Shown here piece by piece: positions 1,017-18,853 of a stretch of 64,000 nt of DNA (position 1 is the stretch's first letter; every line of letters starts with the position of its first letter). The stretch is from contig JAACQG010000010.1 of the NCBI GenBank assembly GCA_009995045.1, positions 28,025 to 92,024 on the forward strand, written 5' to 3'. The position numbers and the translations under genes were made by a program. The notes under the pieces are model-generated. The model searched no databases, was not told where the DNA came from, and saw nothing but the letters and a program-made list of their open reading frames with translations. Source of the stretch: Alphaproteobacteria bacterium (GTDB lineage Bacteria; Pseudomonadota; Alphaproteobacteria; Micavibrionales; Micavibrionaceae).

Positions 1017-1715
1017 TTAACGCGTCTTAGGGCGTTTTTCTTCTGGCTCTTTATAAGCAACAACCTTACCCGACCATTGCTCAATCTGAAGACCATCAGG
1101 ATGTTCAGCGTCGATCACACGTCCAATCTGAATATTTAAAATCGCATTTTGAATGACGCCGTTTTCATTCCCCTTATACGTTTTTATATTTTTATCCAAA
1201 TAAGTCATAACAACTGGCACACGAAACAACCAACGATAGCGATTGGCAACAACCCCTTCATTCAACAAAAGCGGCTGCTCATTGACGTAACTCATAATAT
1301 TGTAACGCCCGCTTTCCATCACTTTTTGAATATTATTATCAGCAAGAAATTTCATATATTGTTGTTTTGCTGTGGCATCAAACAGCGCCGTCTTGCTGTC
1401 TATAACCGAAATGGGTGCACCCGCCTCAAAATTCATCGCCTCGCCACCAACCGTCATAATCCAACGACCAATCTCTTCTGTCAAAAGATGCGGATTTACA
1501 AGCGGCACGGCATCAACTGGCAATTGCTCCAATTTCTCTTTATCCTTCACACCACTGCCCGCCGCAAATTCCGCAACCATCTCTTTCGACGGGTCGTATT
1601 CTTCCTCTTTCAAACTGGGAAAAAAGAATTCCAAAACACCAGCATGTGCCGCGAATGAGTGAACGGCGCACGCCATTACCAAAAAAAAGCCTAATATTAA
1701 ATGGTTGCGCTGCAT
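1017..1715 (-). CDS. secreted IcmL/DotI-like domain protein (putative)
   Basis: The ORF runs to 1754, but the internal ATG at 1715 has a good SD (GAAGGGGGA 9 nt upstream) and starts a signal peptide, MQRNHLILGFFLVMACAVHSFAAHA. The C-terminal pattern FL..N.IQKV...G.Y.....V...P....EGVV.NRYRW.F.VP.VMTY...I.IGRV.....DGLQIEQW resembles the IcmL/DotI family. Confidence 0.55.
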   Translation of the reverse strand: MQRNHLILGFFLVMACAVHSFAAHAGVLEFFFPSLKEEEYDPSKEMVAEFAAGSGVKDKEKLEQLPVDAVPLVNPHLLTEEIGRWIMTVGGEAMNFEAGAPISVIDSKTALFDATAKQQYMKFLADNNIQKVMESGRYNIMSYVNEQPLLLNEGVVANRYRWLFRVPVVMTYLDKNIKTYKGNENGVIQNAILNIQIGRVIDAEHPDGLQIEQWSGKVVAYKEPEEKRPKTR

Positions 1716-1755
1716 AATGCGAAATCCCCCTTCACGGTACTTTGTTATTATCATT

Positions 1756-4216: not shown

Positions 4217-7200
4217 ATGCTGCATTTCATAAAGAACCCTCTGAGTAATAAAATAAATAAATCAAAGACTTGCCATGATAAACCTCATGCGTCAGATCCC
4301 CTAAACCACCCCTCTTCCCATCGTAAAACCGAACGTGGAAACGTCTTCTTCACCCTCTTCGGCGCGGTAGCCGTCGTCGGCATTCTCGGCGCAGGTATCA
4401 TGCAAACCATGCAAGGCCCGCTCAATACAATGGTGCAGGTCAATTTACGCGAACGCGCTAAAAGCGAAATGTCCATTCAATCAAAACTCGCCCTGCTTGA
4501 AGCAACCAATCAGGCAAATAGCGGCGACTGTGATTCTGATGGTTTTGTAGAACCCTTAGGGCATTCTGGAGCGATCGCTGGCTTAACAGGTGGCGGCTCG
4601 TTACCGACAGGCACAAAAACGGACCCTTGGGGCAATGAATATGGCTATTGTGCATGGGATGCGGGAGATACATCAGGCACATGTGGCGGCGCTTATTCCA
4701 CTTTGCTAGACGGTGACGCACCAACAGAAGCTAACAACTATTCAGTAATCGCAATCATATCCGCAGGGCCGGACGGTATTTTCCAAACAACATGTCAAGA
4801 TCATCCAACTCTTGAAACACGTGGCGGCGACGATCTTGTCGAAAACTACACATACGAAACAGCCGTTGCAGGATCAGGCGGCCTATGGAATATTAAATCA
4901 GGAACGCCAACATCCGCCGAAATCAACAAGGATGTGGATTTAAGAACCGAAAGCGATGTCTTCGGCTCGACCAGAAGCCCGCAGCTCATCCTCGGCGCAT
5001 CCTCAATCGTCCTCCCAACAGATACAACAGCTGGCATGACATGTAACAGCGCCAACCAAAACATCTTACGCGTGAATACAGCAACCGACCCCGACAGCTT
5101 GGAATTATGCCTATTAGTAGCACCTAGCACATACGGATGGAGATCTGTCGCCGCGGGTGCAACGGCATCCGCGCTTGCCGATGACGACACAACCGTAACC
5201 ACCGACGATTCCGCACCATCAATCGTATTTGCCGTAAACGGAACCGATGAACTCACAATAACCCCATCAAAACTTGAAGCAGGCTCACTAGACATTGAAA
5301 CAACAGGGACTCTAAATGCAGGCGCGGCAACATTCGGCGGCAATACAGCCGTCACCGGAACATTCGATGTCAACGGCGCAACAACATTAGACGCTCTCAC
5401 CGCATCCGGAAACACCACAATCAACGGCGCTTTTGAGGCAACAAGCGGCGCCACAATCAGCGGCGGCAGCGATCCTTCTCTCTCCGTCACGGGCAATATC
5501 GGCGCGGTCGATGTTGACCTGTCCGGCGACCTCAACCTCGGCAGCACAGAATCCGTGAACTGGGGCGATGCTTCCGTAAACATCACAGGCGACGCAACAG
5601 CAGACTCCCTCGTCTTCGCCGCAAACACTGCCAATTTCGACGCCGCAACAACAACCTTCGACGGCGCGGTATCAATCGCAAACACCGTAACCCCAACCGC
5701 CGATCCCGCACTAGATGTAACAGGAAACGTAGACGTCAGCGGTGATTTAGATGTCGACGGCTCCCTCAATCTCGGCGGCGATCAACTCTCCCTCGGCACA
5801 TTAACGGAAAACAATGCAGGCCGAATTTTAATCGGTCAATACAACGGTACAGACGCAACCACTGCATATTTCAGCTCTGAAACCGTTGGCGGCGATGCGT
5901 CACTTGGTAAAGACGGCGTGCTAACAATTATCAACGGCGCAATCGACGAGCCAAAAATGGACATCAGCAACGGCCCAACTGGCGGTGATTGTTTGAAATA
6001 TTTAAGCGGCGTCTTAACATGGCAAGCCTGTTCTGGCGGCGGCGGCGGTGATGGCGTTGGAACAGATGGCCTGCCCGACGTTCTGGCAAACGATAACAGC
6101 GCAAATAGCCTCAAAATCACAGACCTCGCAGACCCAACAGCCAACCAAGACGCCGCCACCAAAAAATACGTTGACGACTCTCTCGGCTCACTCGCCTCTG
6201 ACCGCATCCAAGATTTGGACAACAACACCTTCATCGAAGTCGACACAACCGATGATGGTTTAACGGACTCTATTGTTTTCACCACCAATGGCACGACGCG
6301 TTTGACCTTTGATAAGGTGGGCAATGCAGATTATAATGGGGGAGCAGGAGCATTCTATTTCTCCCGTAATTCAGGCGCGAATACTGCCCCGATTGTTATT
6401 CAAAACGCCTTCGGCGGTGGCGCTGGTATTACTTTTGGAAATGGGGGTAATGTCTGGGCACAGGTGCTAGGTTTACCAACGGATGACCTAGTCTTCAATA
6501 CTGATGTGACCGAACGCGCACGCTTTACTGCCGCTGGGGATCTACTGATTGGCACGAACACTGCGGCCGGATCAGCCATTTTACAAATGGACTCCACAAG
6601 TAAAGGTATTCTTATTCCACGCATGACTCTAGCCGAACGTAATGCTATCGGAACTCCCGCAAACGGTCTTGTCGTCTTCGCAACCGATGCCGGCGATGCC
6701 GGCCTCCTCCAATTCTACGACGGCACGCAATGGGTTGATGTCGGCGGCGGCGGCGCGAATACGGGCGGCCTCTGGACTGATCTCGGCGGCGACCGCATCC
6801 ATTACGGCGACGCAGGCACCGAACAAGTCGGCATCGGCACAGATAACCCCGTCACAACCCTCGACGTCAATGGCGGCATCCGTGTCGGCTCCGTCAGCGG
6901 CGCAGACGCCCCAACATACCTCTCCCTCGCTAGCCTCAGCGACACCGACGTATCAAGCGCGTCCGATGGACAATATCTGACCTACAACACGGGAAGCGGC
7001 AATTGGGAAGCTCAAAGCCTTACAGGCGCCGCAGTACCCGATGGCTCTCTCGACTGGGATAAATTCGTCGATGCCATGACCCTAGACACCACCACCACCA
7101 TCGACATGGACACAAATTCCGCCAACCTCAATTTCGACAGCGACACATTCGTAATCGACAGCGCGGATGATAGAATTGGAATTGGAACAAGCTCCCCTGC

Positions 7201-10200
7201 ACATGAGCTTCATGTCATAGGTAATATAGCAATCCCGAGAGGAAATACATATGGTGTAAACCATTTAGGAACCTACACAGATTTAATCAGCCTCGATTCA
7301 GCAAATAATCGAGTTTATGGCTCTTTAGGTTCAAACACTAGGAGTCGCATGCTAATATTAAACAATGGGCAAATGAACTTGCAAACAAATGCTCAAGATA
7401 TAATATTTAGTAGTAAAGCATTAAACACAGAAAGTGCTCGCATAACGGGCAACGGTAATATACTTGTTGGCACTACAACAGAAGACACATCCGCTTTATT
7501 AAACTTAAATAGTACAACATCCGGCTTCCTCACCCCCCGCATGAACAATACGCAACGCGATGCTATTGCATCACCTGCAACCTCATTGTTGATTTTCTCG
7601 GTCACCGATAACGAATATCAATACAACGCCGGAACACCCGCAAGTCCGAATTGGGTGCCGATGAGCGGCTCTGCCTGTGCCGATCCGACCCCCGATGCGT
7701 TTGATTTTTCAAACCTCGCAAACCAAACAATATCAAGCGTTGTCGCATCCAACATTGTTCAAATCACGGGCGTAAGCTGCGCGGTAACCGTCTCCTCCTC
7801 CGGCGATGCTTCCACCCAATTACAAAGCTGTAGCGACGCAACATGTTCAACCGTTATCCAAGGATGGTCATCAAGCGTACAAATCAATAATGGCGAATAT
7901 GTTCAAGCCCGCCTCACAACATCGTCAACCCCCGGCGCGACAAGCACAACAACCATCACAATCGGTAGCGCATCTGACTCATGGTCGGTATCAACATCCG
8001 GCGGTGATTGTAGCGTCGCCAACCCGATACCTGGAACCGTCTGTGCCGACGGCACCGTTTATGCGGGCAAAACGGTCGACGGAAACGTTAAAATGTATGT
8101 CACACGCTGTGACGAAGGAATGTCATGGAACGGCTCTGTATGCACAGGAACACGCGTATACCCCAAGTGGGCCACCAATGGCAATACTTCGGATGACAGC
8201 GGCGGCGGCGGTACAGTATCCGGTTTCACCAACACTTATACACTGAATGCGCTGGTTAACACCAACTCCCCCTTCCCAATGGCTGATCGATGCGCAACAC
8301 TCACCGCAAACGGCCATTCGGATTGGTACCTACCAGCAACACAGGAATATGTTACAATACTTGGCAATAAAGACGCGATCGGTTATTTCAACAATACTGC
8401 AACATATTTTGCATCCAACCAATCTAATGTCGTTTCTGCACTCGCTATAAGAGCGAGTGATCAGACATCTATTGCCGGAGCAAAAATTAATACGTCAGAG
8501 GTGCGCTGCGCCCGTAAAGACGGCGCCTTGCCCCCCGCTGGAACACCGGGCGGTACGGATGGACATGTCCAATATAACGAAGGCGGCAATTTAAACGGCA
8601 ATGCAAACTTCGTTTGGGATTACACCAACAATAACCTCGGCATCGGCACAGATACTCCTGCCGCTGCACTAGACGTTACGGGCAACACAGGAGAGGCGAC
8701 TATTATCGCCCGCGCTACTGACATTTCCGTGCCCTTCTTCCAGGCTTATGGAGATCTTGATGGCAATCCGAATGCCCCATTTATGAATATATCAGTAGTG
8801 AATAGTACGTCAGATCGTATTGTAGTTGATTTTGAACAAGAACGTGCCTGGCTGCAATCTCCAGAATTTCGCTTTAACTATTTAGGTAGTGATAGTAATA
8901 GCGGATCACAATTCCTTTTCACCGGAAATGCAGCAGGAAGCCGATTAATTGCAAGTGATAGAGCGCAGTCTATGGTTCAGGTTTCGGGTGGTTTCGAGCA
9001 AACCGGCACCGCCGCAATGGATGCTTTCATAATCAATCCAAGCATTTACACTACCGGAGATGGTACAACAGGTTCAGGAAATAATTTGCTGCGCGTTGCT
9101 AATACGGGTGTTGACCAGTTTGTTATCGATACTGACGGCAAGGTCGGCATTGGCACAAATGCACCGGACGCATCAGCAAGTTTAGATATTGCATCCACCA
9201 GCAGAGGCTTCCTCACCCCCCGCATGACCACAACCGAACGCGACGCCATCGCTACCCCCGCAACAGGCCTCATGGTCTATAACACCACATCAAACACATT
9301 CGATTATTATGACGGCGCCGCATGGGCATCCTTCGCATCCAGCGCAGGCACAGCAAACGCCCTCTCCGATACGGGCGACGGCAATACGTCAATCGACGTT
9401 GACACAGATAACGCCGACACCAACAACACAACGGTCTTCACCAATGCCGGTACACAAAGCATGATTATTGATGCCACAGGGGATGTCGGGATCGGCACAA
9501 TGGCAGACCCTTCAGAGGTACTCCACGTCGCAAGAACAGGACAAGACCCGACGATAAGAATTCAAAACGATGGAAGCGCCAATTCCACCGCCATCGCAAT
9601 TACAGATACTATAGCTAACAGAAATTCAACAATTCGATGGACTACTGGTGGCAACAGTGAAAGAGCAAAGATAAGTGCGTACATGGGCTCGTCTGGGGCA
9701 TCACCCAATATGTCCCTTTCAACTGGGTTTAATACTCAAAAAACATCTTTGGCCCTTAAATCCCCAGTAATTGACACTCAAAATATAGCGGCAGCGTCCA
9801 TAAGCTATACAACCGATTTACCAACATCTGGCAATGACACAGGCTTGTTAATCAGTAAAACAGATACAGCCTCTAATGGGATATCACTTCTCATCAACGC
9901 TCAGACAGACAGCACAACGCAATTCAGTGTTGATGATTCAGGCATTGGGTATTTCGCTGGTAATGTCGGCATCGGCAACGCTTCTCCCGATGTTGCCCTC
10001 GACGTCACCGGCGACATCGAATACACGGGAACCCTCACCGACGTATCCGACCGCCGCTTAAAAGACAACATCACCCCGCTCAACAAACACGGCGCGTTGA
10101 TTGACCGCATCAACCAAATCGAAACCGTCAGCTTTGTTATGAAAGACGACGCTAAAAAACGCACAGAATTCGGTGTAATCGCCCAACAATTAGAAACCAT

Positions 10201-10528
10201 CTTCCCCGAACTTGTTCATACCGCAAAAGATGAAATGGGCACAAAATCAGTCAACTACGTCGGCCTCATCGCCCCGATGATCGAGGCGACAAAAGAGCTA
10301 AAAGCTGAAAACGATGCGTTAAAGGCCGAAATCGCCACGATGAAATCCGGCCAAGACGAGATCATGGCCAGCCTCGCGTCCATGCAAGATGATATGAACG
10401 GCCTCAAACTCCATACTGGCTTTGGCATTGAAAAAGCCAATCTTCAAACCCTCGCTATCATGCTTTTAATGATGATCTTGGGTGGCTCCTGCGTTATGAT
10501 TGCAACCCGCATCAGACGTCATTCATAA
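4217..10528 (+). CDS. giant (2103 aa) chimeric surface fibre: pilin/pseudopilin-like N-terminus, tail-fibre-type repeats, DUF1566-like module, peptidase-S74 intramolecular chaperone domain, C-terminal TM anchor
   Basis: Uninterrupted 6.3-kb ORF with AAGGGG about 11 nt upstream of the ATG. N-terminus: basic leader plus hydrophobic helix ERGNVFFTLFGAVAVVGILGAGIM (4337-4402) and DPWGNEYGY...SAGPDGIFQT (4622-4790), which is GspG/pseudopilin-like. Middle: Thr/Gly/Ala-rich repeats (about 5280-5780); PTANQDAATKKYVDD (about 6130-6180); 6 copies of (V/I/L)GIG(T/N)..P...L(D/H)V.G; 3 copies of G(I/F)L.PRM...(E/Q)R.AI..P; DUF1566-like module at 8042-8518. C-terminus: SDRRLKDNI...FGVIAQQLETIFPELV...VNYVGLIAPMIEATKEL (10046-10290), then a coiled coil and a TM helix (10448-10510). 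Confidence 0.9.
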   Translation: MLHFIKNPLSNKINKSKTCHDKPHASDPLNHPSSHRKTERGNVFFTLFGAVAVVGILGAGIMQTMQGPLNTMVQVNLRERAKSEMSIQSKLALLEATNQANSGDCDSDGFVEPLGHSGAIAGLTGGGSLPTGTKTDPWGNEYGYCAWDAGDTSGTCGGAYSTLLDGDAPTEANNYSVIAIISAGPDGIFQTTCQDHPTLETRGGDDLVENYTYETAVAGSGGLWNIKSGTPTSAEINKDVDLRTESDVFGSTRSPQLILGASSIVLPTDTTAGMTCNSANQNILRVNTATDPDSLELCLLVAPSTYGWRSVAAGATASALADDDTTVTTDDSAPSIVFAVNGTDELTITPSKLEAGSLDIETTGTLNAGAATFGGNTAVTGTFDVNGATTLDALTASGNTTINGAFEATSGATISGGSDPSLSVTGNIGAVDVDLSGDLNLGSTESVNWGDASVNITGDATADSLVFAANTANFDAATTTFDGAVSIANTVTPTADPALDVTGNVDVSGDLDVDGSLNLGGDQLSLGTLTENNAGRILIGQYNGTDATTAYFSSETVGGDASLGKDGVLTIINGAIDEPKMDISNGPTGGDCLKYLSGVLTWQACSGGGGGDGVGTDGLPDVLANDNSANSLKITDLADPTANQDAATKKYVDDSLGSLASDRIQDLDNNTFIEVDTTDDGLTDSIVFTTNGTTRLTFDKVGNADYNGGAGAFYFSRNSGANTAPIVIQNAFGGGAGITFGNGGNVWAQVLGLPTDDLVFNTDVTERARFTAAGDLLIGTNTAAGSAILQMDSTSKGILIPRMTLAERNAIGTPANGLVVFATDAGDAGLLQFYDGTQWVDVGGGGANTGGLWTDLGGDRIHYGDAGTEQVGIGTDNPVTTLDVNGGIRVGSVSGADAPTYLSLASLSDTDVSSASDGQYLTYNTGSGNWEAQSLTGAAVPDGSLDWDKFVDAMTLDTTTTIDMDTNSANLNFDSDTFVIDSADDRIGIGTSSPAHELHVIGNIAIPRGNTYGVNHLGTYTDLISLDSANNRVYGSLGSNTRSRMLILNNGQMNLQTNAQDIIFSSKALNTESARITGNGNILVGTTTEDTSALLNLNSTTSGFLTPRMNNTQRDAIASPATSLLIFSVTDNEYQYNAGTPASPNWVPMSGSACADPTPDAFDFSNLANQTISSVVASNIVQITGVSCAVTVSSSGDASTQLQSCSDATCSTVIQGWSSSVQINNGEYVQARLTTSSTPGATSTTTITIGSASDSWSVSTSGGDCSVANPIPGTVCADGTVYAGKTVDGNVKMYVTRCDEGMSWNGSVCTGTRVYPKWATNGNTSDDSGGGGTVSGFTNTYTLNALVNTNSPFPMADRCATLTANGHSDWYLPATQEYVTILGNKDAIGYFNNTATYFASNQSNVVSALAIRASDQTSIAGAKINTSEVRCARKDGALPPAGTPGGTDGHVQYNEGGNLNGNANFVWDYTNNNLGIGTDTPAAALDVTGNTGEATIIARATDISVPFFQAYGDLDGNPNAPFMNISVVNSTSDRIVVDFEQERAWLQSPEFRFNYLGSDSNSGSQFLFTGNAAGSRLIASDRAQSMVQVSGGFEQTGTAAMDAFIINPSIYTTGDGTTGSGNNLLRVANTGVDQFVIDTDGKVGIGTNAPDASASLDIASTSRGFLTPRMTTTERDAIATPATGLMVYNTTSNTFDYYDGAAWASFASSAGTANALSDTGDGNTSIDVDTDNADTNNTTVFTNAGTQSMIIDATGDVGIGTMADPSEVLHVARTGQDPTIRIQNDGSANSTAIAITDTIANRNSTIRWTTGGNSERAKISAYMGSSGASPNMSLSTGFNTQKTSLALKSPVIDTQNIAAASISYTTDLPTSGNDTGLLISKTDTASNGISLLINAQTDSTTQFSVDDSGIGYFAGNVGIGNASPDVALDVTGDIEYTGTLTDVSDRRLKDNITPLNKHGALIDRINQIETVSFVMKDDAKKRTEFGVIAQQLETIFPELVHTAKDEMGTKSVNYVGLIAPMIEATKELKAENDALKAEIATMKSGQDEIMASLASMQDDMNGLKLHTGFGIEKANLQTLAIMLLMMILGGSCVMIATRIRRHS

Positions 10529-10550: not shown

Positions 10551-13500
10551 ATGAAATTCGCTCTTCGAATTCTAACCGCTTTTGTTTTGATCTGCGCCGC
10601 GCTGCACACGAATGCCGCCAACGCCGCATGCTCAAACCCCACCGGCGTCGAAGGGCAAATCGTCTTCAACGAAACCTCCAAAATCCCCCAATATTGCGAT
10701 AACACAAACTGGATCGCCATGGTCGGGGGAGATCCGACCCCCGCACCCGACTGCCCCGCTGGCATTACGTCATGCGGTGGACAAACCGACGAACGTGTCG
10801 TTTTTTTAACATCACCAATCAACAACCCCAGTACAACAAATACATACAATAAATGCGCATCAGAGGCTGCCGCAGCTGGTTTAAAGGGAACTTATTACGC
10901 TTGGTATGCAAGCACAGATGAAGATGACCCTGAATCAGTATACGAAAAATCCCGCGTCCCGTATGTTAAAGTGGATGGTGTAAAAGTAGCCGATGACTGG
11001 GCTGACTTAACTGATGGAACAATAGACAGCAGTATTGATACATTTGCATCCGGCGACAGCGGTGGTTCTACAAACGGCGTTTGGACATTTGTTCTGCCTG
11101 ATGGAACTTATGCTGGCGATTCCACCTGCACCACAAACCTCTCATCCGGATTAAGAAACACCACAAGCTCCGGCTGGACAACCGGAACAGGATCAGGATC
11201 ATGTTCAAATGGAAAACGCCTTTATTGCTTCGAACAAGGGCAACCAACAACAAAAATCGTGCCCAACGGCCTCCTCGGCCACTGGCGCCTCGACGAAACC
11301 AGCGGCACCACCGTCTACGACAGCAGCGGAAATGGATATGGCGGTACAATGATTGGCGGCCCCACAAGTATACCAAACACCGTTATTGGAAATGGTCGAA
11401 ATTTTGGTAACGGTGATCGAATTGACATCACGCATGGAGGCGCCCTTGATAACCTGAACCAATTTACGATCTCGGCTTGGGTTTTTAGAGAAAATAATGG
11501 CGCCGGAGCACAAGGCCGTATTATGGCGATGCCGGGCAATTTTATGTTGTCATTATGGAATAATAGCATCCGTTTTACGGCCAGTCGCTGGAGTGGCAAT
11601 GAAGGAGGTTGGCGCAACGGAGCTGATCTTCCCAGTGGTCAATGGCATCATTATGTTGTGACATACGATTATAGTTCGACAACAAATATTCCAAATGTAT
11701 ATTTTAATGGAGAGCCTTATAATTTATCCAGAACTTCTGCGCCAACCGGCTCACCGACAAATGTTTCCAGCACTCTTAATCTGGGCAATGACCCATCAGG
11801 GCTATGGTTGAGAAATACTCTTGACGACGTGCGCATTTATAACCGCATTATCTCCCCCGACGAAGTCGCCGCAATCTACGCCGCGCGCGATGGCATCCGC
11901 TACAACGAAAATTACCGCGCCCCCGAATATTTCGACGGCAACCAATTCGTAACCATGCCCGCCCCCTTCCCCGAACCTGGCGACGCCCCAGTTTATGGCT
12001 GCAAAACAATCGGCGAAACATGCTCAGACGGAACAATCCATGCTGGCTTATCTCCTGATGATAATCAGCCAATATTTGCAACGCCAACAGATGCCCCCGG
12101 GGGAGCTGCTTATTCATGGAATGCAGGCAATGCAAGCGGAGCCAGTATGGTCGCCGTTACCGCAGATGCATGTTACAGCTCCGGCCAAACAGGATGTAAA
12201 ACAGGGGAACTCAACACAAATGACGCGGCAACAGCAGATTCAGATTCTATAACTGCCGGCATCCAAGACCATGAAGCCGCCAAATATTGCGACGGCCTCA
12301 GCAGCAACGGCTACGATGATTGGTATCTTCCCGCCCAAGAAGAGCTAGCACTTCTTTACACCAATAGAAGCGTCGGAGATTTATCAGGAACTTTTGCAAC
12401 ATCATATCCCGAACACACATATTGGACGTCATCGGAAGTCAATGACACAGCTGTACAAATATACAGTTTTGATGGAAGCGGTGGCAATAATGCCACCAAA
12501 GAAAACACATGGTCTGTGCGTTGTATACGTAAAGGAAGCTACGAATTAGCAGGAACCGCAGGCCTCGTCGGTCATTGGAAGTTCGACGAAAAATCTGGAA
12601 ATACAATTAAAGATTATGGATCTTCTGGCAAAGATTTAGCGTGGACAGACAATAACAATAATGATTTGAGCGAAGAATCAAACCGCGGCGCAATAGCTGG
12701 AAGTCTAAATTCTATTAATGGTATCGCCAAAATAAATACTATTGGTGACCAAGATTTTTATTTAAGCCCCACGGATAGCATGACCATATCCTTATGGTTC
12801 AAAACAGACGCACCAACAACCGCACTTTTTAACAGTTCTGCTGGTAGCATGGTTTCAACAATTATACTCGATGGCGGGCGCTTGCGCCCGCGTGTAAGAG
12901 ACAGTAATAATGTATTCCTCATTGATACTTATATAGCCAGCAACCTTAATGATGAAAGCTGGCATTTTGCATCTGTCGTTGTAAATAGACTTAACAATAG
13001 AATAAAAACATACATTGATGGTATTGAATTGGATGATCGCGACGTTTCATCCGCAACAGGAAATATCGGCATCCCCTCTAATACTGGAATAAGCATTGCA
13101 CAAACTGCTAGAAATACGAATATTGATGACGTTCGTTTTTATAACCGCGCCCTATCCGCCGCCGAAATCACCCAGATCTTCCAAATGGGCACCCCCGTCG
13201 GCTCCGTAACAGCCCTCCCTGAGGGCTGCCCCAATATCGGCGATGTCTGCGACGACGGCACCGTTTATGCAGGGCTCTCACCTGATGGAGACGTAGAAAT
13301 GTTTACGACACCAAATGATGGCCCTACCGTACCATGGAACAACGGGAATTCAAGCGGCAGAACCCTTGTCGGCACAGACGATACTGCTGGCTACGCTAAC
13401 ACTCAAATTATAATCTCAACAGATGCAGATTCAAGCATCGCCGGTTTCCAACCCCACCAAGCCGCACAATATTGTTGGGATTTACAAGCGCATGGTTATG

Positions 13501-13841
13501 GTGATTGGTATTTACCATCTGAAGATGAAGTTTACAGATTCTATCAATATGTTACAGCAATAAAAAATTTCACGATTAGTGGATCTGTTTATTATTGGAG
13601 TTCGACAGAGGGGTCTGGCGATTCTACAAATAGAGCTTTCAGAAAAAGATTAAGCGACCCGTATGGAACAGGTGTAGATAAAAACACTTCCAATTCGCGA
13701 CTACGCTGCGTCCGCAAAGGCCCTGCCCCGCGCTGCGCAAATCCTTATGGTCTTGAAGGACAAATCATCTATAATTCCACACATGATGTCGCACAATATT
13801 GTGATGGCGCCCGCTGGGTCAGTATCGGGAAGGATAATTAA
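10551..13841 (+). CDS. secreted modular protein (1096 aa): Cys-box, endostatin/DUF1554-like module, 2x [LamG + DUF1566-like], Cys-box
   Basis: The ORF opens at 10500 and would overlap gene A there. ATG 10551 (GGAG upstream) starts the signal peptide MKFALRILTAFVLICAALHTNAANA. LamG-type modules at 11269-11885 and 12564-13190 run from LLGHWRLDETSGTT / LVGHWKFDEKSGNT to DDVR(I/F)YNR..S..E. DUF1566-like modules at 11998-12535 and 13226-13720 show DWYLP..EEL, YW(T/S)S(S/T)E and (V/L)RC(I/V)RKG. Confidence 0.9.
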   Translation: MKFALRILTAFVLICAALHTNAANAACSNPTGVEGQIVFNETSKIPQYCDNTNWIAMVGGDPTPAPDCPAGITSCGGQTDERVVFLTSPINNPSTTNTYNKCASEAAAAGLKGTYYAWYASTDEDDPESVYEKSRVPYVKVDGVKVADDWADLTDGTIDSSIDTFASGDSGGSTNGVWTFVLPDGTYAGDSTCTTNLSSGLRNTTSSGWTTGTGSGSCSNGKRLYCFEQGQPTTKIVPNGLLGHWRLDETSGTTVYDSSGNGYGGTMIGGPTSIPNTVIGNGRNFGNGDRIDITHGGALDNLNQFTISAWVFRENNGAGAQGRIMAMPGNFMLSLWNNSIRFTASRWSGNEGGWRNGADLPSGQWHHYVVTYDYSSTTNIPNVYFNGEPYNLSRTSAPTGSPTNVSSTLNLGNDPSGLWLRNTLDDVRIYNRIISPDEVAAIYAARDGIRYNENYRAPEYFDGNQFVTMPAPFPEPGDAPVYGCKTIGETCSDGTIHAGLSPDDNQPIFATPTDAPGGAAYSWNAGNASGASMVAVTADACYSSGQTGCKTGELNTNDAATADSDSITAGIQDHEAAKYCDGLSSNGYDDWYLPAQEELALLYTNRSVGDLSGTFATSYPEHTYWTSSEVNDTAVQIYSFDGSGGNNATKENTWSVRCIRKGSYELAGTAGLVGHWKFDEKSGNTIKDYGSSGKDLAWTDNNNNDLSEESNRGAIAGSLNSINGIAKINTIGDQDFYLSPTDSMTISLWFKTDAPTTALFNSSAGSMVSTIILDGGRLRPRVRDSNNVFLIDTYIASNLNDESWHFASVVVNRLNNRIKTYIDGIELDDRDVSSATGNIGIPSNTGISIAQTARNTNIDDVRFYNRALSAAEITQIFQMGTPVGSVTALPEGCPNIGDVCDDGTVYAGLSPDGDVEMFTTPNDGPTVPWNNGNSSGRTLVGTDDTAGYANTQIIISTDADSSIAGFQPHQAAQYCWDLQAHGYGDWYLPSEDEVYRFYQYVTAIKNFTISGSVYYWSSTEGSGDSTNRAFRKRLSDPYGTGVDKNTSNSRLRCVRKGPAPRCANPYGLEGQIIYNSTHDVAQYCDGARWVSIGKDN

Positions 13842-16800
13842 TGCACGTTAAAACCGTCATAACGAACACGACCAAGGCAATCCATACAAAAACAATTGCC
13901 GCCGCATCATTATGCCTGCTTGCCATGACCGCATTATCCCCGAACACGGCCTACGCCGCATGTTCGAACAACATGGATGGAGAGGCGGGCGTTGCCGGCG
14001 AAATTGAATTCTTCACCCCCGATAACGTCCTACGCTATTGCGACGATACAAATTGGGTCGACATGGTCTATAAAGGCCCAATCCCTCCCGATTCCAGCTC
14101 CATCGTAAATTTCTTCTCTGATTTTTTTGCCCCCCCCGCCCCGACAACCGAATACACCGCCAACGCGGTAAATTTCGATGGTACAAATGACTATCTACGA
14201 CGCGGATCAGATATGACAGGAGCCGCCGATTCTAAATTACTTACATTCAGCTTTTGGTTAAGACTTGCCGATACCGCGTCAGGCGCCAAAATCATCTACA
14301 ATAATACCGGCAGCGCCATTCTATTATACGCAAACGGCAGCTCTATAAGCTTCGGTTTAAAAAATAGCGCAGGCACAACCATCACAAACGCACGCATCAC
14401 AAACACAGCCGTCGCTAATGAGTGGTATCACGTACTTGTAAGTGTTGATATGGCAGACACCGCCAGCTCGTCTATGTATCTCAATGACGAAGTATCCGGC
14501 ACCTTCTTTTCGCCAAATCCTTTTATTGATGAGAATATTGCTATATCTAAAGCTGAACATTCGATTGGCTCTGCGGCCAATACCACACAAAAATTCAATG
14601 GTGATCTCGCCGATATATGGATTGATTATGACACTTTCATCGACTTTTCCGTCGAAGCCAACCGCCGTAAATTCATCAGTGCCTCTGGCTATCCCGTAAA
14701 CCTCAATGCCGATGGCTCCCTCCCCACTGGCGCCCCACCTGACATCTTCCTCTCTGGCGACACTGCAACATGGCACACAAATAAAGGAACAGGAGGTGGT
14801 TTTACCGAAGGCGGCGCGCTGACCGATGGACCATCCGTCACCCCAAACGGCCTCGTCGCCCATTATAAACTCGACGAAACCAGTGGCACAACAGCCATTG
14901 ACTTCACCGCAAACGGCTACAATTCAACCATGTCCGGCGGAATGACTGCAGCTGCAAGCACCACAAATGGTGTCTTTAATAATAGTTTTAATTTTAACGG
15001 CGTAAGCAATAAATTATTAGTGCCAAACACTCTGGGCACTTCGTTATTTGGAAGTCCAATTTCATTTTCAGCATGGATATATAATGAGGGCGAAAACTCA
15101 GATTCTGATGCCTTTAATTCACAGCATATAATTAGTTTTATACACGATATTCGTGCTGTTTTGTACATTAGAGAGAGTGATCACCCAACAAATCCAAATA
15201 GTTTATTGTTTCTTTTAGATGATAGTGGCGGTGAAAAAATATTAGCAAGCGCAAGTAACGTTGTAAAACAAAACTCATGGATGCATGTCGCTGGGGTTAA
15301 TGATGGGGTTAATTCTAAAATTTATTTAAATGGAATACAAATAGGGTCTCTTCCAGCAGGTACTCCAGATACTCCGTTGGGTTCGAATAGAGGCATTGCA
15401 ATAGGCGGTTCAACTGATGGCACTTCAGAATTTAATGGTTCAATAGACGATGTCCGTATTTACAACCGCGCCATCTCCGACGACGAAATCACCGCTCTTT
15501 ACGACCTCGGCAAAGAGCGCGCCTCCCTCATCGGCCATTTCAAGCTCGACGAAACCAGCGGCACCACAGGTATCGACAGTTCAATTTTGGCAAATAACGG
15601 AACCTATATTAACGGCGTAACCCCCGCCACTGACACAAAAGACGGTGTCTATGACAACGCCATCAATTTCTACTCAGACGTTAGCGTTTCAAACAAAGAA
15701 TTAAAAGCCCCCTCAAATGACACTTATACAAACACATCGGAGCTAACATACGCCGCATGGATCAAACCCAGAGATTTTGGCGGGCATAGAGGCATAATAG
15801 AATTGGTCGATAACGCACACATGAAAACATATTTTAGCACAGATGATCTATCCTTCGGGGTAGAGGCATGGGACGATGGTTTCCATGAGTTCCGTGCAGC
15901 GACCTCGATCCCACCCAATGAATGGACACATGTTGCGGTCACATACAGCTACAATGACACGCCCACCACCGCCCCTAAGTTTTACATCAACGGAAACTTA
16001 TTCACTGGCTACATAAATGTACCTAACATTTCAACATCAACATATACCCTCCCCGCAACCTCCGCGGCTGTCGTTGGGCGGGTTGAATGGAATGGCAGCG
16101 GTAAAAACTTTAACGGCCTTGTCGATGATGCCCGCATCTATAACCGCGTCCTCACCGCCGCCGAAATCCAAGAGCTATATAATGACGCCAACCTCTCCCT
16201 CGTCGCGCATTACAAACTCGATGAAACCAGCGGCACAACAGCAATAGATAGCAGTGTCACAGGAAATAATGCAACAGCAACAGGTTCAAACATCACACTT
16301 AACCAATCTGGCATTATAGAAAAATCAGCCGTTTTTGGAGCAAACAGTGCCTATATTGTTCCACATAACGCAGTATATGAAGACCTTGATCAATTAACGC
16401 TATCTGCATGGGTAAAAGACCCTGCAACCGGAACCTTGTCCTTTATCGACAAAAACAATGATTTTTCATTTCAATTAAACTCAGCCAATAACAGGCTTCA
16501 ATTTGCAGGAGCACGCTGGAGCACGACATCAGGCATATGGCGCACACCGAATAATACACTTCCGTTAGAAACTGATAGCTGGTATCACGTTGCGGTTACA
16601 TATGATACATCAAATCTAACCAATGACCCATTATTCTATGTGAATGGGGATTTGGTATCCACAACTGAGCAAATAACACCCGCAGGAGTAAAAAAAGCAC
16701 CAGGATCGCTAAATTTATTTCTCGGGAATCAAAACAACTTGGCAAACCCACTGGGTGGTAATCTTGATGACGTTCGCATTTATAACCGCATCTTAAGCGC

Positions 16801-18841
16801 CGATGAAATAAAAGCTCTAACCAAAACCGGAACTGGCGGCTTGATTGCACATTACAAACTTGATGAAACATCAGGAACCACCGCCGCCGACAGCTCGATT
16901 TACAATAACGATGCCGCGATGAACGGCGGCTTGGATGCAAATAACAACCGCGTCGACGGCCCAATGAATACCGCCTTAGAATTTGACGGTGTTAACGACA
17001 AAATCAACTTAACAAATCCAAACCTAGTGTTAGGAACCGCCCCTAAATTCTCCGTTATGGCATGGATAAAACCCAACGAAATTAATAACTCGTATATCTT
17101 TAATTGGGGCAGCGGCAGCGGAAAATCTCCATCTATCCAATTCAATAGTAACGCGCTTAGATTCGGAATAACCGGCTCCAGAATAGATGCGGCAATGACA
17201 GATATGGGAATCGCAGAAAATAAATGGAGCCATGTCACAATCACGTATGACGGCACAACAGGAAGAATATATGGCAATGGTATATTAGTAGAATCCGATA
17301 CCTTAAACCTAACTGAAATCGATGACGGCACAATAGAAATTGGCGGCGGACCAAGTTATTTTAATGGAGCAATCGATGATGTAAAAATTTACGACCGCCT
17401 CCTCTCCGTGGATGAAGTCCTCGCCCTCTACAACGCCGGCGATCCACCGCCCGTTCCAAATGATAACCTCCTTGCCCATTGGGAATTCGAAGAAACATCG
17501 GGCACAACTGCCACAGACAGCACCGGCAACGGATATGACTTAACGCTTTCCTCCTCCCTAACCGCAAATTCAGTAACGGGAAGAATTGATAACGCCTTTG
17601 ATTTCTTTGCCGCTGGTAACGGTTCGAGCGGTCAAGCAAACATCCCCGCGTCTTTCACCGCCAACAAACAATTCACTGTTGCAATGTGGCTGCGCCTGAA
17701 AGACATAGATTCCAGACAACAAGGATTTTTCGGAAGCTCCAATTGGTTTAGGATCATGAATTATTTCGGCAATAGGGTCATCTTCAATACCCAAGCATGG
17801 GACACAAACGCAGTCGTATATGGTCCAACATTGGATCCCAATAAATGGACGCATATTGCGGTATCCTATGATTATGATGCCCCCTATACCCAAGATCCCA
17901 TTTTTTATGTAGACGGCGTCATGGCATCGACAAGCTGGCAGGGCGCGGCCCCTTCTGGCGCATATACAGACCCCGCCGACGAAACCTTATTCGTTGGAAG
18001 AAGAGTAGACTCATCAAGCGGTGGATTTAGCGGCGACATGGACGATGTGCGTTTCTATAACCGTATCCTTAGCCCCGCCGAAATCGAAATCCTCGCCGGT
18101 TGCACTGGCCCCGGCTCCTATTATTACAACTTCAGCAACAACAACATGCAATGGTGCAACGGCGTAAACGCTCCAAAAGATATGGGCCCAACCAATACAT
18201 CCGGCTCAACGTCTTCTTGCAACGTAAGTTATGACAGAGCAAATGTTGACTTCATATCAGATGGAGCTTCATTATATTACTGCAACACTCAAGATATGAT
18301 CCCCATTGGCAGAAAATGCACAAGTTGCGGAGGAAGCGCTACTGAAAAAGTCGCTTTTGTAACAATGTCAGCACAAAATGGTAATATGGGCGGCTTATCA
18401 GGGGCTGATGCCATTTGCCAAGCTGAAGCGGATGCCGTTGGCCTCACAGGAACCTACCTCGCTTGGCTTGCCGATAATACAGGATCACCAGATAGTAGGT
18501 TTTCTACTGCAATTAAAGGTACATTGCCAATAGTAAGAACAGATGGAACAACCATCGCAAATAATTGGGCCGATTTAACAGACGGCAGCATAGACGCACA
18601 AATGAACTATAGTGTTTATGGCGCGAAAAAAGAAACAAATGTATCCATAACGTGGACGAATGTAGCGAATGACGGGACATTATTTAATTCCTCAAATACG
18701 TGTGTAGATTGGACATCGAACAATAATGCAGACAACGGACAAACAGGGACAAGTACGGGCACAACTGATTGGACAGAACGTTCGTTCTCTCCCACTCGTG
18801 ACTGCCAAACTCGCTATCAAATTTACTGCTTCGAACAATAA
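13841..18841 (+). CDS. secreted modular protein (1666 aa): Cys-box, 6 LamG-type modules, degenerate Cys-boxes, C-terminal endostatin/DUF1554-like module
   Basis: The ATG overlaps the gene B stop (TAATG, 13839-13843). Signal peptide ends ...LLAMTALSPNTAYA. Five tandem modules each start (L)(V/I/L)(A/G)H(Y/F/W)(K/E)(L/F)(D/E)ETSGTT and end DDV(R/K)(I/F)Y(N/D)R.(L/I)S..E. One variant module has FDGTNDY...LADIWIDY. The C-terminus ends ...YQIYCFEQ. Confidence 0.9.
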   Translation: MHVKTVITNTTKAIHTKTIAAASLCLLAMTALSPNTAYAACSNNMDGEAGVAGEIEFFTPDNVLRYCDDTNWVDMVYKGPIPPDSSSIVNFFSDFFAPPAPTTEYTANAVNFDGTNDYLRRGSDMTGAADSKLLTFSFWLRLADTASGAKIIYNNTGSAILLYANGSSISFGLKNSAGTTITNARITNTAVANEWYHVLVSVDMADTASSSMYLNDEVSGTFFSPNPFIDENIAISKAEHSIGSAANTTQKFNGDLADIWIDYDTFIDFSVEANRRKFISASGYPVNLNADGSLPTGAPPDIFLSGDTATWHTNKGTGGGFTEGGALTDGPSVTPNGLVAHYKLDETSGTTAIDFTANGYNSTMSGGMTAAASTTNGVFNNSFNFNGVSNKLLVPNTLGTSLFGSPISFSAWIYNEGENSDSDAFNSQHIISFIHDIRAVLYIRESDHPTNPNSLLFLLDDSGGEKILASASNVVKQNSWMHVAGVNDGVNSKIYLNGIQIGSLPAGTPDTPLGSNRGIAIGGSTDGTSEFNGSIDDVRIYNRAISDDEITALYDLGKERASLIGHFKLDETSGTTGIDSSILANNGTYINGVTPATDTKDGVYDNAINFYSDVSVSNKELKAPSNDTYTNTSELTYAAWIKPRDFGGHRGIIELVDNAHMKTYFSTDDLSFGVEAWDDGFHEFRAATSIPPNEWTHVAVTYSYNDTPTTAPKFYINGNLFTGYINVPNISTSTYTLPATSAAVVGRVEWNGSGKNFNGLVDDARIYNRVLTAAEIQELYNDANLSLVAHYKLDETSGTTAIDSSVTGNNATATGSNITLNQSGIIEKSAVFGANSAYIVPHNAVYEDLDQLTLSAWVKDPATGTLSFIDKNNDFSFQLNSANNRLQFAGARWSTTSGIWRTPNNTLPLETDSWYHVAVTYDTSNLTNDPLFYVNGDLVSTTEQITPAGVKKAPGSLNLFLGNQNNLANPLGGNLDDVRIYNRILSADEIKALTKTGTGGLIAHYKLDETSGTTAADSSIYNNDAAMNGGLDANNNRVDGPMNTALEFDGVNDKINLTNPNLVLGTAPKFSVMAWIKPNEINNSYIFNWGSGSGKSPSIQFNSNALRFGITGSRIDAAMTDMGIAENKWSHVTITYDGTTGRIYGNGILVESDTLNLTEIDDGTIEIGGGPSYFNGAIDDVKIYDRLLSVDEVLALYNAGDPPPVPNDNLLAHWEFEETSGTTATDSTGNGYDLTLSSSLTANSVTGRIDNAFDFFAAGNGSSGQANIPASFTANKQFTVAMWLRLKDIDSRQQGFFGSSNWFRIMNYFGNRVIFNTQAWDTNAVVYGPTLDPNKWTHIAVSYDYDAPYTQDPIFYVDGVMASTSWQGAAPSGAYTDPADETLFVGRRVDSSSGGFSGDMDDVRFYNRILSPAEIEILAGCTGPGSYYYNFSNNNMQWCNGVNAPKDMGPTNTSGSTSSCNVSYDRANVDFISDGASLYYCNTQDMIPIGRKCTSCGGSATEKVAFVTMSAQNGNMGGLSGADAICQAEADAVGLTGTYLAWLADNTGSPDSRFSTAIKGTLPIVRTDGTTIANNWADLTDGSIDAQMNYSVYGAKKETNVSITWTNVANDGTLFNSSNTCVDWTSNNNADNGQTGTSTGTTDWTERSFSPTRDCQTRYQIYCFEQ
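14851..18100 (+). repeat. tandem array of five about 0.6-kb LamG-module coding repeats inside gene C
   Basis: Module starts lie near 14851, 15528, 16198, 16840 and 17467. DNA-level similarity is visible at module boundaries, e.g. cattataaactcgacgaaaccagtggcacaacagcc (14861) versus cattacaaactcgatgaaaccagcggcacaacagca (16208). Confidence 0.8.
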
Positions 18842-18853
18842 AAATGAAATGAT

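What the first reader, a model, noticed from the sequence alone, without database searches (positions are those of the whole stretch)
4217..10528. Gene A is an unusual chimera: pseudopilin-like N-terminus fused to a phage tail-fibre body with an S74 chaperone
The N-terminus has a basic leader plus a hydrophobic helix (ERGNVFFTLFGAVAVVGILGAGIM, 4337-4402). About 75 aa later comes DPWGNEYGYC...VIAIISAGPDGIFQT (4622-4790), which matches the hallmark DPWG..Y.Y ... S.G.DG signature of T2SS GspG-type pseudopilins. The canonical prepilin site G|FTL.E is absent, with no Glu at +5. The rest of the protein has tail-fibre features: PTANQDAATKKYVDD, six GIGT..P...LDV.G units, and a C-terminal endosialidase-type chaperone domain. 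A fibre with a pilin-type base and a phage-type tip-maturation module is not an architecture I recognise. It could be a pilus- or pseudopilus-presented adhesin.
Basis: partly seen in the sequence, partly recalled or inferred. Interest (0 to 1): 0.8.

Follow-up and report, generated by a model that had tools for sequence, protein, structure and literature searches.

The report
Pilin-anchored tail-fibre adhesin of predator
Gene A is a real 2103-residue surface fibre of a Micavibrio-like predatory bacterium, and it combines a very divergent pseudopilin-like membrane anchor with a phage-tail-fibre-like body and a self-cleaving folding chaperone; it belongs to a large unannotated family, so it is not a one-off chimera.

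Summary
Window 4217-10528 (+) is one ORF of 2103 aa. All quoted motifs are present, and Pfam finds Peptidase_S74 at aa 1944-2001 (E 8.5e-16).

The N-terminal ~210 aa match no Pfam, NCBIfam or PDB sequence. Profile-profile comparison with GspG pseudopilins is well above shuffle controls (local P 2e-6, global P 1.8e-7). It is colinear from the leader glycine to the DPWG..Y.Y / SAGPDG / DD motifs. AlphaFold predicts a ~55-residue N-terminal helix plus a three-stranded sheet. The top Foldseek PDB hit is PulG, but it is weak (E 0.14).

The module defines a family of at least 1165 protein clusters, nearly all in Micavibrio-like alphaproteobacteria. In 44 of 80 loci the gene lies directly downstream of ubiB. 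The N-terminus is strongly conserved as [EQ]-x-G|N-[VI]-F-F, with no Glu5. Of 173 members, 62 end in S74, and 35 of those add a coiled coil and a C-terminal membrane helix, as Gene A does.

Closest precedents are Bdellovibrio MAT fibres and pilin-S74 "modular pilins". My best reading is a trimeric prey-adhesion fibre carried on a tip-type pilin module. Display by pilus or T2SS machinery is inferred, and no such machinery is nearby. I rate it a new variant of a known kind.

The parts
4217..4339 (+). Leader peptide M1-G41, ending R-K-T-E-R-G. The family consensus is R-x-x-[EQ]-[SRA]-G, with G at -1 in 99% of members.
   Evidence: The leader end resembles Q-[RS]-G of E. coli GspG/H/I/J/K.
4340..4414 (+). 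Hydrophobic alpha1N-like helix N42-Q66, followed by the invariant G67-P68. Conserved positions: N+1 89%, F+3 94%, F+7 95%, G+14 94%, G+17 94%. No Glu at +5.
   Evidence: hhalign puts G(-1) and G14 in register with GspG.
4322..4954 (+). Conserved N-terminal module (aa 36-246). It is a divergent GspG-like pseudopilin fold: helix 42-64 / 66-96 and strands 143-148, 176-182 and 207-212.
4523..4552 (+). GDCDSDGFVE, an EF-hand-like DxDxDG loop. D108 and E112 are invariant in the family.
   Evidence: one member gives weak EF-hand Pfam hits. Calcium binding is inferred only.
4622..4657 (+). DPWGNEYGYCAW (strand 1), aligned to DPWGNDYVL of GspG.
4742..4777 (+). VIAIISAGPDG (strand 2), aligned to the ..DLLSAGPDG stretch of GspG.
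4823..4855 (+). GGDDLVENYTY (strand 3). The invariant D205-D206 align to the DDI of GspG in the extended and global alignments.
5018..5152 (+). Cys-hairpin motif C276...C298..W. It is shared with family members and with the downstream giant proteins.
4955..10045 (+). Fibre body (aa 247-1943). It is Gly/Thr/Ala/Asn-rich and contains repeated bead-like units.
6134..6178 (+). PTANQDAATKKYVDD motif. It is also present in the shorter family members P0018 and P0024.
6827..6868 (+). Capping-loop-like unit 1, VGIGTDNPVTTLDV.
   Evidence: It resembles the MAT/S74 motif V-G-G/N-pi-x-x-P-x-x-x-L.
7175..7216 (+). Capping-loop-like unit 2, IGIGTSSPAHELHV.
8636..8677 (+). Capping-loop-like unit 3, LGIGTDTPAAALDV.
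9143..9190 (+). Capping-loop-like unit 4, VGIGTNAPDASASLDI.
9485..9529 (+). Capping-loop-like unit 5, VGIGTMADPSEVLHV.
9965..10006 (+). Capping-loop-like unit 6, VGIGNASPDVALDV, immediately before the S74 domain.
8279..8515 (+). Weak Lcl_C (DUF1566)-like insert at aa 1355-1433. It may be a ligand-binding module.
   Evidence: E 2.5e-4, below the gathering score
10046..10219 (+). Peptidase_S74 intramolecular chaperone domain. The catalytic residues are S1944 (10046-10048) and K1949 (10061-10063), and the predicted self-cleavage is V1943|S1944.
   Evidence: tblastn matches phage tail fibres in 828 phage records.
10220..10411 (+). Coiled-coil-like segment after the S74 domain.
   Evidence: (weak DivIC / DUF7491 coiled-coil hits) and direct reading of the sequence
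10439..10504 (+). C-terminal transmembrane helix NLQTLAIMLLMMILGGSCVMIA, followed by TRIRRHS and the stop codon at 10526-10528.
   Evidence: The same tail occurs in 35 of the 62 S74-bearing family members.

Best explanation
Gene A encodes a chromosomal, cell-made trimeric fibre of a Micavibrio-like predatory alphaproteobacterium. It is functionally analogous to the MAT adhesive fibres of Bdellovibrio.

Shown:
- A C-terminal S74 intramolecular chaperone with an intact S-D-x-x-x-K motif.
- A tail-fibre-like body with six capping-loop-like units.
- A strongly conserved N-terminal module, about 210 aa long, that heads a large family.

Inferred with good support:
- That module is a very divergent GspG-type pseudopilin (type IV filament pilin) fold.
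- It has a degenerate class-III-like signal, [EQ]-x-G|N-V-F-F.
- It lacks Glu5, as the tip pseudopilin GspK does.

Inferred mechanism:
1. The precursor inserts into the inner membrane as a hairpin, with the N-terminal helix and the C-terminal helix both in the membrane and both termini in the cytoplasm.
2. The membrane-tethered S74 domains bring three chains into register and fold the fibre.
3. Self-cleavage at S1944 leaves the chaperone, coiled coil and membrane-helix stub behind.
4. The three pilin-like modules then anchor the fibre.
5. Most likely they act as a tip or initiator subunit of a pilus or pseudopilus, comparable to GspK, trimeric CofB/TcpB and tip-exposed modular pilins. That filament would carry the fibre through a secretin to the surface for prey attachment.
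For: - ORF and S74 domain. The C-terminal region matches phage tail fibres in 828 phage records.
- Family size: 1165 clusters at E<=1e-3, with the module always N-terminal. There are 165 genomic loci, almost all in Micavibrio or alphaproteobacterial MAGs.
- The N-terminal motif conservation is far beyond what a generic membrane anchor would show.
- GspG similarity: hhalign against GspG gives 89% probability, P 2.1e-6 (local) and 90%, P 1.8e-7 (global, colinear). Shuffle controls reach a maximum of 22.7 against the observed 44.5, and 19.5 against 40.0. GspG scores best among seven Gsp proteins. One of 25 members hits Pfam T2SSG at E 0.21.
- Structure: the AF2 models have pLDDT 80.9 and 83.9, with a ~55-residue helix and a three-stranded sheet. 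The top Foldseek PDB hit is PulG at E 0.14, and the next hit is at E 4.9.
- E. coli GspK has the leader EQRG|VALLI and no Glu5.
- 62 of 173 members carry S74, and 35 of those carry the C-terminal membrane helix.
- The gene sits at a conserved chromosomal locus downstream of ubiB in 44 of 80 loci. Some genomes have tandem paralogues.
- Literature: MAT fibres, including a Micavibrio example (PMC10769870). The pilin-S74 modular architecture (PMC8179133). M. aeruginosavorus has T4P and Tad genes, a type IV leader peptidase, and a T2SS without annotated GspC/G/H/K (PMC3189940).
Against: - There is no significant Pfam, NCBIfam or PDB-sequence match for the module.
- The first Foldseek search found no pilin. 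The second gave PulG only at E 0.14 with TM 0.28/0.41.
- Phe/Met at +1 and Glu5 are absent, and a cleavable Sec site (G-A-A|T near +19) cannot be excluded.
- No prepilin peptidase, secretin, platform or ATPase gene lies in the 64 kb window, in about 19 kb of extra flank, or within 10 kb in 84 of 86 loci.
- Trimerisation, cleavage, surface location and a role in predation are all untested.
Confidence: 0.55

Rival explanations
1. The N-terminus is only a Sec signal peptide or an uncleaved signal anchor. The following domain is a lineage-specific envelope-binding base, playing the role of the conserved N-terminal domain of Bdellovibrio MAT fibres. The GspG-like motifs are then a relic or convergence with no link to pilus machinery, and the fibre reaches the surface by another route.
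For: - No pilin signature is found in Pfam or NCBIfam.
- Structural similarity to pilins is only weak.
- No type IV filament genes lie near the gene in the window or in 84 of 86 loci.
- Bdellovibrio MAT fibres use a signal peptide plus a non-pilin N-domain.
- A small-x-small site around +17 to +19 could serve signal peptidase I.
Against: - The conservation of [EQ]-x-G-N-[VI]-F-F and of G14/G17 in the hydrophobic segment is atypical for Sec signal peptides.
- The leader end matches the Q-[RS]-G of pseudopilins.
- The similarity to GspG is colinear over the whole domain and specific to GspG.
- PulG is the single top structural hit.
Confidence: 0.32
2. Gene A is a phage or phage-tail-like-particle tail-fibre gene sitting in a prophage remnant.
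For: The S74 domain and the region before it match phage tail fibres in 828 phage records. The body carries tail-fibre motifs.
Against: - The surroundings are housekeeping genes, with no phage genes.
- The same ubiB-adjacent position is kept in 44 of 80 loci across many species.
- The membrane helices at both ends do not fit a virion protein.
- Base composition is the same as the surroundings.
Confidence: 0.03
3. The module is itself the polymerising major subunit of a filament, standing in for the 'missing GspG' of the Micavibrio T2SS, so that many fibre-bearing subunits stack into a bottle-brush filament.
For: The module is most similar to the major pseudopilin GspG. The M. aeruginosavorus T2SS lacks an annotated GspG.
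Against: - Glu5, which is needed for subunit-subunit packing in type IV filaments, is never present.
- A trimeric fibre of up to several thousand residues on every subunit is hard to pack sterically.
- The short members I read (P0001, P0012, P0028) end in what look like frameshifted tails.
Confidence: 0.05

Closest known systems
Bdellovibrio bacteriovorus MAT (mosaic adhesive trimeric) fibres, S74 subgroup (Caulton et al. 2024, PMC10769870)
   Same: Both are encoded by a predatory bacterium and not by a phage. Both are long fibres with capping-loop motifs close to V-G-G/N-pi-x-x-P-x-x-x-L. Both end in an S74 chaperone with SDxxxK. Both have an invariant N-terminal base, variable bodies or tips, and multiple paralogues. 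That paper lists a Micavibrio S74-like protein as MAT-like.
   Different: MAT fibres have a cleavable signal peptide followed by a beta-rich domain of about 130 aa. Here the base is a conserved membrane helix plus a GspG-like alpha/beta module. Gene A also has a coiled coil and a membrane helix after S74. I did not compare the sequences directly because no Bdellovibrio sequences were available.
Modular type IV pilins, especially the IPR012902-IPR030392 (pilin + S74) architecture (Raynaud et al. 2021, PMC8179133)
   Same: An N-terminal pilin module carries a grafted functional module and is expected to sit at the filament tip. A pilin joined to an S74 domain is already catalogued among the 15 commonest modular-pilin architectures.
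   Different: Those proteins carry the canonical class III signal recognised by IPR012902. Gene A's family fails that signature, having no Phe1 or Glu5 and Asn at +1. It is also far longer, up to 6785 aa.
GspG / PulG, the major pseudopilin of type II secretion (PF08334; PDB 5O2Y)
   Same: The two share a leader ending Q/E-x-G, a hydrophobic helix with G14, the DPWG..Y.Y strand, the S.GPDG strand and a DD loop in the same order. PulG is also the top Foldseek hit.
   Different: The Pfam model is not matched at its threshold. There is no FTLxE, and there are large loop insertions with two likely disulfides. Gene A is not in a gsp operon, and it is fused to about 1850 further residues.
Tip pseudopilin GspK, and the trimeric initiator minor pilins CofB and TcpB
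   Same: GspK lacks Glu5 and caps the pseudopilus (the sequence is shown; its tip location is as discussed in PMC8179133). CofB is a trimer with extra domains that is predicted to be tip-exposed. A trimeric S74 fibre would likewise supply three pilin modules.
   Different: I found no detectable sequence similarity to GspK beyond the membrane helix. From my own knowledge, CofB and TcpB keep a canonical signal with Glu5, and their extra domains are small.
Phage tail fibres and tailspikes with an S74 intramolecular chaperone (K1F endosialidase, T5 L-shaped fibre), and eukaryotic MYRF
   Same: The S74 domain has the catalytic Ser-Lys pair and is preceded by a VGIG..P...L loop. From my own knowledge, the S74-type domain of MYRF is also followed by a membrane helix.
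   Different: Gene A is not part of a virion. Its N-terminus is a membrane or pilin-like anchor and not a tail attachment domain.

Membership tests
Type IV filament pilins (class III signal peptide) | A hydrophilic, positively charged leader ending in Gly at -1 | tested here: met
   G at -1 in 99% of 167 members. The preceding consensus is R-x-x-[EQ]-[SRA], with net charge +1.4 over the last 10 leader residues.
Type IV filament pilins (class III signal peptide) | Phe/Met at +1 and Glu at +5 (the FTLxE core) | tested here: not met
   +1 is Asn in 89% and Ser in 10%. +5 is Ala, Thr, Met or Val, and never Glu.
Type IV filament pilins (class III signal peptide) | Match to the N-terminal methylation signature (PF07963 / IPR012902 / TIGR02532) | tested here: not met
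   No hit at E<=10 for Gene A or for the 25 aligned members.
Type IV filament pilins (class III signal peptide) | An N-terminal alpha1 helix of about 50 residues, hydrophobic in its first half, packed on an antiparallel beta-sheet | tested here: inconclusive
   AF2 predicts helices at 42-64 and 66-96 and three strands (pLDDT 81-84). Foldseek gives PulG as top hit, but only at E 0.14, and the first search found nothing.
Type IV filament pilins (class III signal peptide) | Cleavage by a prepilin peptidase and assembly by an ATPase, platform and secretin machine | not testable with these tools
   None of these genes lies in the window or its flanks. The relative M. aeruginosavorus encodes T4P, Tad and partial T2SS genes and a type IV leader peptidase.
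GspG major pseudopilin (PF08334 T2SSG) | Match to PF08334 above the gathering score | tested here: not met
   One of 25 members hits at E 0.21, and Gene A does not hit.
GspG major pseudopilin (PF08334 T2SSG) | The DPWG.xY.Y strand followed by the S.G.DG strand and an acidic loop | tested here: met
   hhalign aligns both motifs (P 2.1e-6) and, in the extended and global alignments, the DD loop. Shuffle controls score far lower.
GspG major pseudopilin (PF08334 T2SSG) | A stand-alone protein of about 140-150 aa encoded in a gsp operon | tested here: not met
   Gene A is 2103 aa and lies next to ubiB, with no gsp genes nearby.
S74 intramolecular-chaperone fibres | PF13884 domain at or near the C-terminus | tested here: met
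   E 8.5e-16 at aa 1944-2001.
S74 intramolecular-chaperone fibres | Catalytic Ser and Lys in S-D-x-x-x-K | tested here: met
   S1944-D-R-R-L-K1949; the motif is as given in PMC10769870.
S74 intramolecular-chaperone fibres | Trimerisation and self-cleavage | not testable with these tools
   This needs expression of the wild-type protein and an S1944A mutant.
Bdellovibrio MAT fibre family | A conserved beta-rich N-terminal domain of about 130 aa directly after a signal peptide | not tested
   No Bdellovibrio sequences were available. The AF2 model here is helix plus a three-stranded sheet, which does not look like a beta-rich domain.
Bdellovibrio MAT fibre family | Capping-loop motif V-G-G/N-pi-x-x-P-x-x-x-L in a trimeric beta-helical fibre | tested here: inconclusive
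   There are six V/I/L-G-I-G-T/N-x-x-P-x-x-x-L-like units, one residue longer than the published consensus. The fibre fold was not modelled.

The most novel reading that the evidence does not exclude
Micavibrio-like epibiotic predators have an unannotated class of type IV filament pilins that lack Glu5 and escape every pilin signature. This module sits at the base of a whole repertoire of trimeric tail-fibre-like adhesins. The fibres are loaded as tip subunits onto the lineage's T2SS-like or T4P/Tad machine, and the M. aeruginosavorus T2SS lacks annotated GspC/G/H/K. A secretion or pilus machine would then work as a launcher for prey-binding fibres. The membrane-tethered S74 chaperone would act as a checkpoint that releases only correctly folded fibres.
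Probability: 0.25. Interest if true: 0.8.

Novelty: new variant of a known kind. Interest (0 to 1): 0.55.

Why it matters
It is not known how predatory bacteria recognise and hold their prey. For Bdellovibrio, phage-like MAT fibres were described only in 2024, and how their base attaches to the cell is unknown. For Micavibrio almost nothing is known.

This family gives a concrete and testable proposal for the attachment. The base would be a degenerate pseudopilin module, which would tie the fibres to type IV filament machinery. The family also shows that signature-based pilin censuses miss a large, strongly conserved class.

The arrangement of membrane helix, fibre, S74 and membrane helix is a bacterial parallel to eukaryotic MYRF. 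If confirmed, the fibres and their variable bodies would be candidate determinants of prey range.

Tried and rejected
- Sequence searches with the N-terminal 314 aa or the family profile against Pfam, NCBIfam and PDB sequences gave no useful hit.
- The first Foldseek search, using the model that still had the membrane helix, found only noise.
- A search for Gsp homologues (C-O) in all ORFs of the window and 86 loci found GspE-like ATPases only in L073 and L055. The L073 one turned out to be a DotB-like gene in a Dot/Icm cluster, not a pilus ATPase.
- I tried to locate the M. aeruginosavorus ARL-13 orthologue in the published transcriptome table by gene length and failed. Its expression phase is therefore unknown.
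- The prophage explanation is rejected on synteny and gene context.
- A literature search for 'PTL_trimer', and one combining intramolecular chaperone, pilin and tail fiber, returned nothing.
- I could not test whether stand-alone short copies of the module exist. The short database entries I read (P0001, P0012, P0028) end in what look like frameshifted tails.

Full report
**Observation.** Window 4217-10528 (+) is a single ORF of 2103 aa with a plausible ribosome-binding site.
- the basic leader and hydrophobic helix. Coordinates 4337-4402 are G41-M62, two residues after the start of the quoted string.
- DPWGNEYGYC at 4622 and VIAIISAGPDG at 4742-4777
- PTANQDAATKKYVDD at 6134-6178
- six [VIL]GIG[TN]..P...L units
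- a Peptidase_S74 domain at aa 1944-2001 (E 8.5e-16) with an intact S1944-D-R-R-L-K1949 catalytic motif

NCBI lists the exact protein as a hypothetical protein of an alphaproteobacterial MAG (NCT41032.1).

**Genomic setting.** The rest of the window consists of housekeeping genes, which I read by eye from the translations: thyA, folA, hflKC, degP, miaA, ilvBHC and two-component systems. Upstream lie ubiB, COQ9, a DotI/IcmL-like gene and gapR. Downstream, 23 nt after the stop codon, three giant secreted LamG/Lcl_C/endostatin-like proteins follow on the same strand. No homologue of GspC-O occurs in the window. Extending about 9 kb on each side adds none.

**The N-terminal module defines a large family.**
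- The first 314 aa match nothing in Pfam, NCBIfam or PDB sequences.
- They do have 29 metagenomic homologues at 36-55% identity.
- A profile of the module finds 1165 clusters at E<=1e-3 among 1.84 billion representatives, 707 of them at E<=1e-30. The module is always N-terminal, and the proteins are 230-6785 aa long.
- In reference genomes there are 165 loci. Nearly all are labelled Micavibrio, 'Alphaproteobacteria bacterium' or Pseudobdellovibrionaceae. NCBI files Micavibrio under Pseudobdellovibrionaceae.
- In 44 of 80 loci the gene sits directly downstream of ubiB, as it does here. It is therefore a vertically inherited chromosomal locus and not a mobile or prophage gene.
- Some genomes carry two or three tandem paralogues.
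- Of the 173 members examined, 62 end in an S74-like domain. Of those, 35 also have the C-terminal membrane helix about 80-100 aa after it. Many of the rest are fragments.
- Gene A is therefore a typical member of this family and not a singular chimera.

**Is the module pilin-like?** The N-terminus is strikingly conserved (167 sequences). The consensus is R-x-x-[EQ]-[SRA]-G(99%) | N(89%)-[VI]-F(94%)-F-[AT]-L-F(95%)-G-A-V-A-x-V-G14(94%)-x-L-G17(94%) ... [KR]-G-P(100%).
- The leader end matches the Q-[RS]-G of E. coli GspG/H/I/J/K.
- G14 is in the pilin position.
- Phe1 and Glu5 are absent. E. coli GspK, the tip pseudopilin, also lacks them (EQRG|VALLI).

Profile-profile comparison with a GspG alignment gave the following.
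- With the 25-sequence profile, probability is 89% and P is 2.1e-6, over DPWG..Y.Y plus ..SAGPDG.
- With a 168-sequence profile, the best local hit is the leader and helix in register (P 1.1e-4).
- With the same 168-sequence profile, the global alignment has probability 90% and P 1.8e-7. It is colinear from G(-1) to the DD loop.
- Column shuffles of the GspG profile give 13.3 +/- 2.6 (max 22.7) against the observed local score of 44.5.
- Six-column block shuffles average 27.3 (max 43.9), so the DPWG block alone does not explain the score.
- Global shuffles give 2.9 +/- 1.9. With the N-terminal 42 columns kept fixed they give 3.9 +/- 3.3 (max 19.5), against 40.0 observed.
- Among single E. coli GspC, G, H, I, J, K and M sequences, only GspG scores well in global mode.
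- One of 25 members touches Pfam T2SSG at E 0.21.

**Predicted structure.**
- AlphaFold2 on the 25-sequence alignment (pLDDT 80.9) predicts a helix at aa 42-64 and 66-96, broken at the invariant G67-P68. Strands follow at 143-148, 176-182 and 207-212.
- Foldseek with that model found nothing.
- A second model used 45 sequences without the membrane helix (pLDDT 83.9, pTM 0.80). It gave the Ca-bound PulG pseudopilin (5O2Y) as the single top hit of 350,542 chains. The values were E 0.14, probability 0.47, TM 0.41 on the target and 145 aligned columns. The next hit was at E 4.9.
- That hit is not significant on its own. It does point to the same small family as the sequence evidence.
- I put the probability that the module is a diverged GspG-type pilin fold at about 0.7.
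- It fails membership of the pilin and GspG families as databases define them.

**The body and C-terminus.**
- The last ~300 aa match tail fibres in 828 phage records, including L-shaped tail fibres and tail-fibre-domain proteins.
- The GIG..P...L units resemble the capping-loop consensus that Caulton et al. derived for Bdellovibrio MAT fibres and other S74 proteins.
- A weak Lcl_C-like insert at aa 1355-1433 may be a binding module.

**Mechanism (inferred).**
1. The positive charges before the N-terminal helix and after the C-terminal helix predict a hairpin in the inner membrane, with about 2000 residues in the periplasm.
2. Membrane-tethered S74 domains would bring three chains into register.
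3. They would then fold the fibre and cut at S1944, leaving the stub in the membrane.
4. The mature trimer is then held only by three pilin-like modules.
5. The module lacks Glu5 and the C-terminal load is huge. The most economical reading is therefore a tip or initiator subunit of a type IV filament that carries the fibre out through a secretin. GspK, trimeric CofB and the 'modular pilins' are precedents.

The related M. aeruginosavorus has T4P and Tad genes, a type IV leader peptidase, and a T2SS lacking annotated GspC/G/H/K. The machinery therefore exists in the lineage. It is not linked to the gene, and nothing here shows that it is used. I put this step at about 0.35-0.4.

**Comparison with what is known.**
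- Functionally, the closest system is the Bdellovibrio MAT fibre family. Its authors already list a Micavibrio S74-like protein.
- Architecturally, pilin+S74 is one of the 15 commonest modular-pilin layouts.
- Several things appear new: the unannotated, signature-negative pseudopilin-like base; its tight restriction to Micavibrio-like bacteria; the scale of the family; and the membrane helix after S74.

**Verdict.** I class it as a new variant of a known kind, of moderate to good interest.

Noticed in passing
window 10551-13841, 13841-18841, 18854-23173 (+): Three giant secreted proteins (1096-1666 aa) with multiple LamG_3, Lcl_C and endostatin/DUF1554-like domains follow Gene A on the same strand, the first starting 23 nt after its stop codon. 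They look like one operon. Related loci have different giant proteins in this position, including Fibrinogen_C and RCC1/WD40 proteins.
   Followed up: partly
window 5018-5152 (Gene A aa 268-312); N- and C-termini of the proteins at 10551-23173: A Cys-hairpin motif of the form C-x(4-8)-G-x-[ILV]-x-[YFR]-N-x(5-12)-YC[DN]G..W recurs in Gene A, in family members and in the downstream giant proteins. In other loci it was found in 16 co-oriented downstream ORFs and 7 family genes, against 4 elsewhere and 0 in reversed sequences. It may be a shared docking or folding unit.
   Followed up: partly
window 1017-1754 (-); L073 962-8114: A DotI/IcmL-like gene (E 1.2e-12) lies upstream of ubiB, and a matching ORF does so in 42 of 80 loci. 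In L073 the same position holds DotD, a DotC/TraI-like gene, a DotB-like ATPase and a TcpQ-domain gene. That is a Dot/Icm-type type IVB secretion set in a Micavibrio-like MAG, whereas the 2011 genome paper reported no T4SS.
   Followed up: partly
L043, L072, L077, L085, L070: These loci carry tandem arrays of two or three family genes of about 800-2800 aa each. This suggests diversification of a fibre repertoire, as seen for Bdellovibrio MAT genes.
   Followed up: no
L075 (Methylobacterium sp. NEAU 140), L068 (Nitratireductor aquibiodomus NL21): Family genes occur in assemblies of non-predatory isolates. From my own knowledge, the L075 locus at 58% G+C is well below typical Methylobacterium values, which suggests a contaminating predator contig. 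The Hyphomicrobium- and Mesorhizobium-labelled MAG loci are at 59-64%.
   Followed up: partly
P0001, P0012, P0028 (short family members): Several short members end in what look like out-of-frame tails, in P0012 directly after a run of glycines. This could be assembly error, pseudogenisation or phase variation.
   Followed up: no
L005 10001-15251: In a 1.1 Mb contig with the same upstream synteny, the orthologous gene is called as two ORFs of 424 aa and 1330 aa, the second carrying S74. This is probably a frameshift or an assembly error.
   Followed up: no
L088 12425-16550 (about 4-8 kb beyond the window's 3' end): A serine recombinase, a DUF2924 gene and an IS-type transposase lie just past the window, which suggests a small mobile element.
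   Followed up: no
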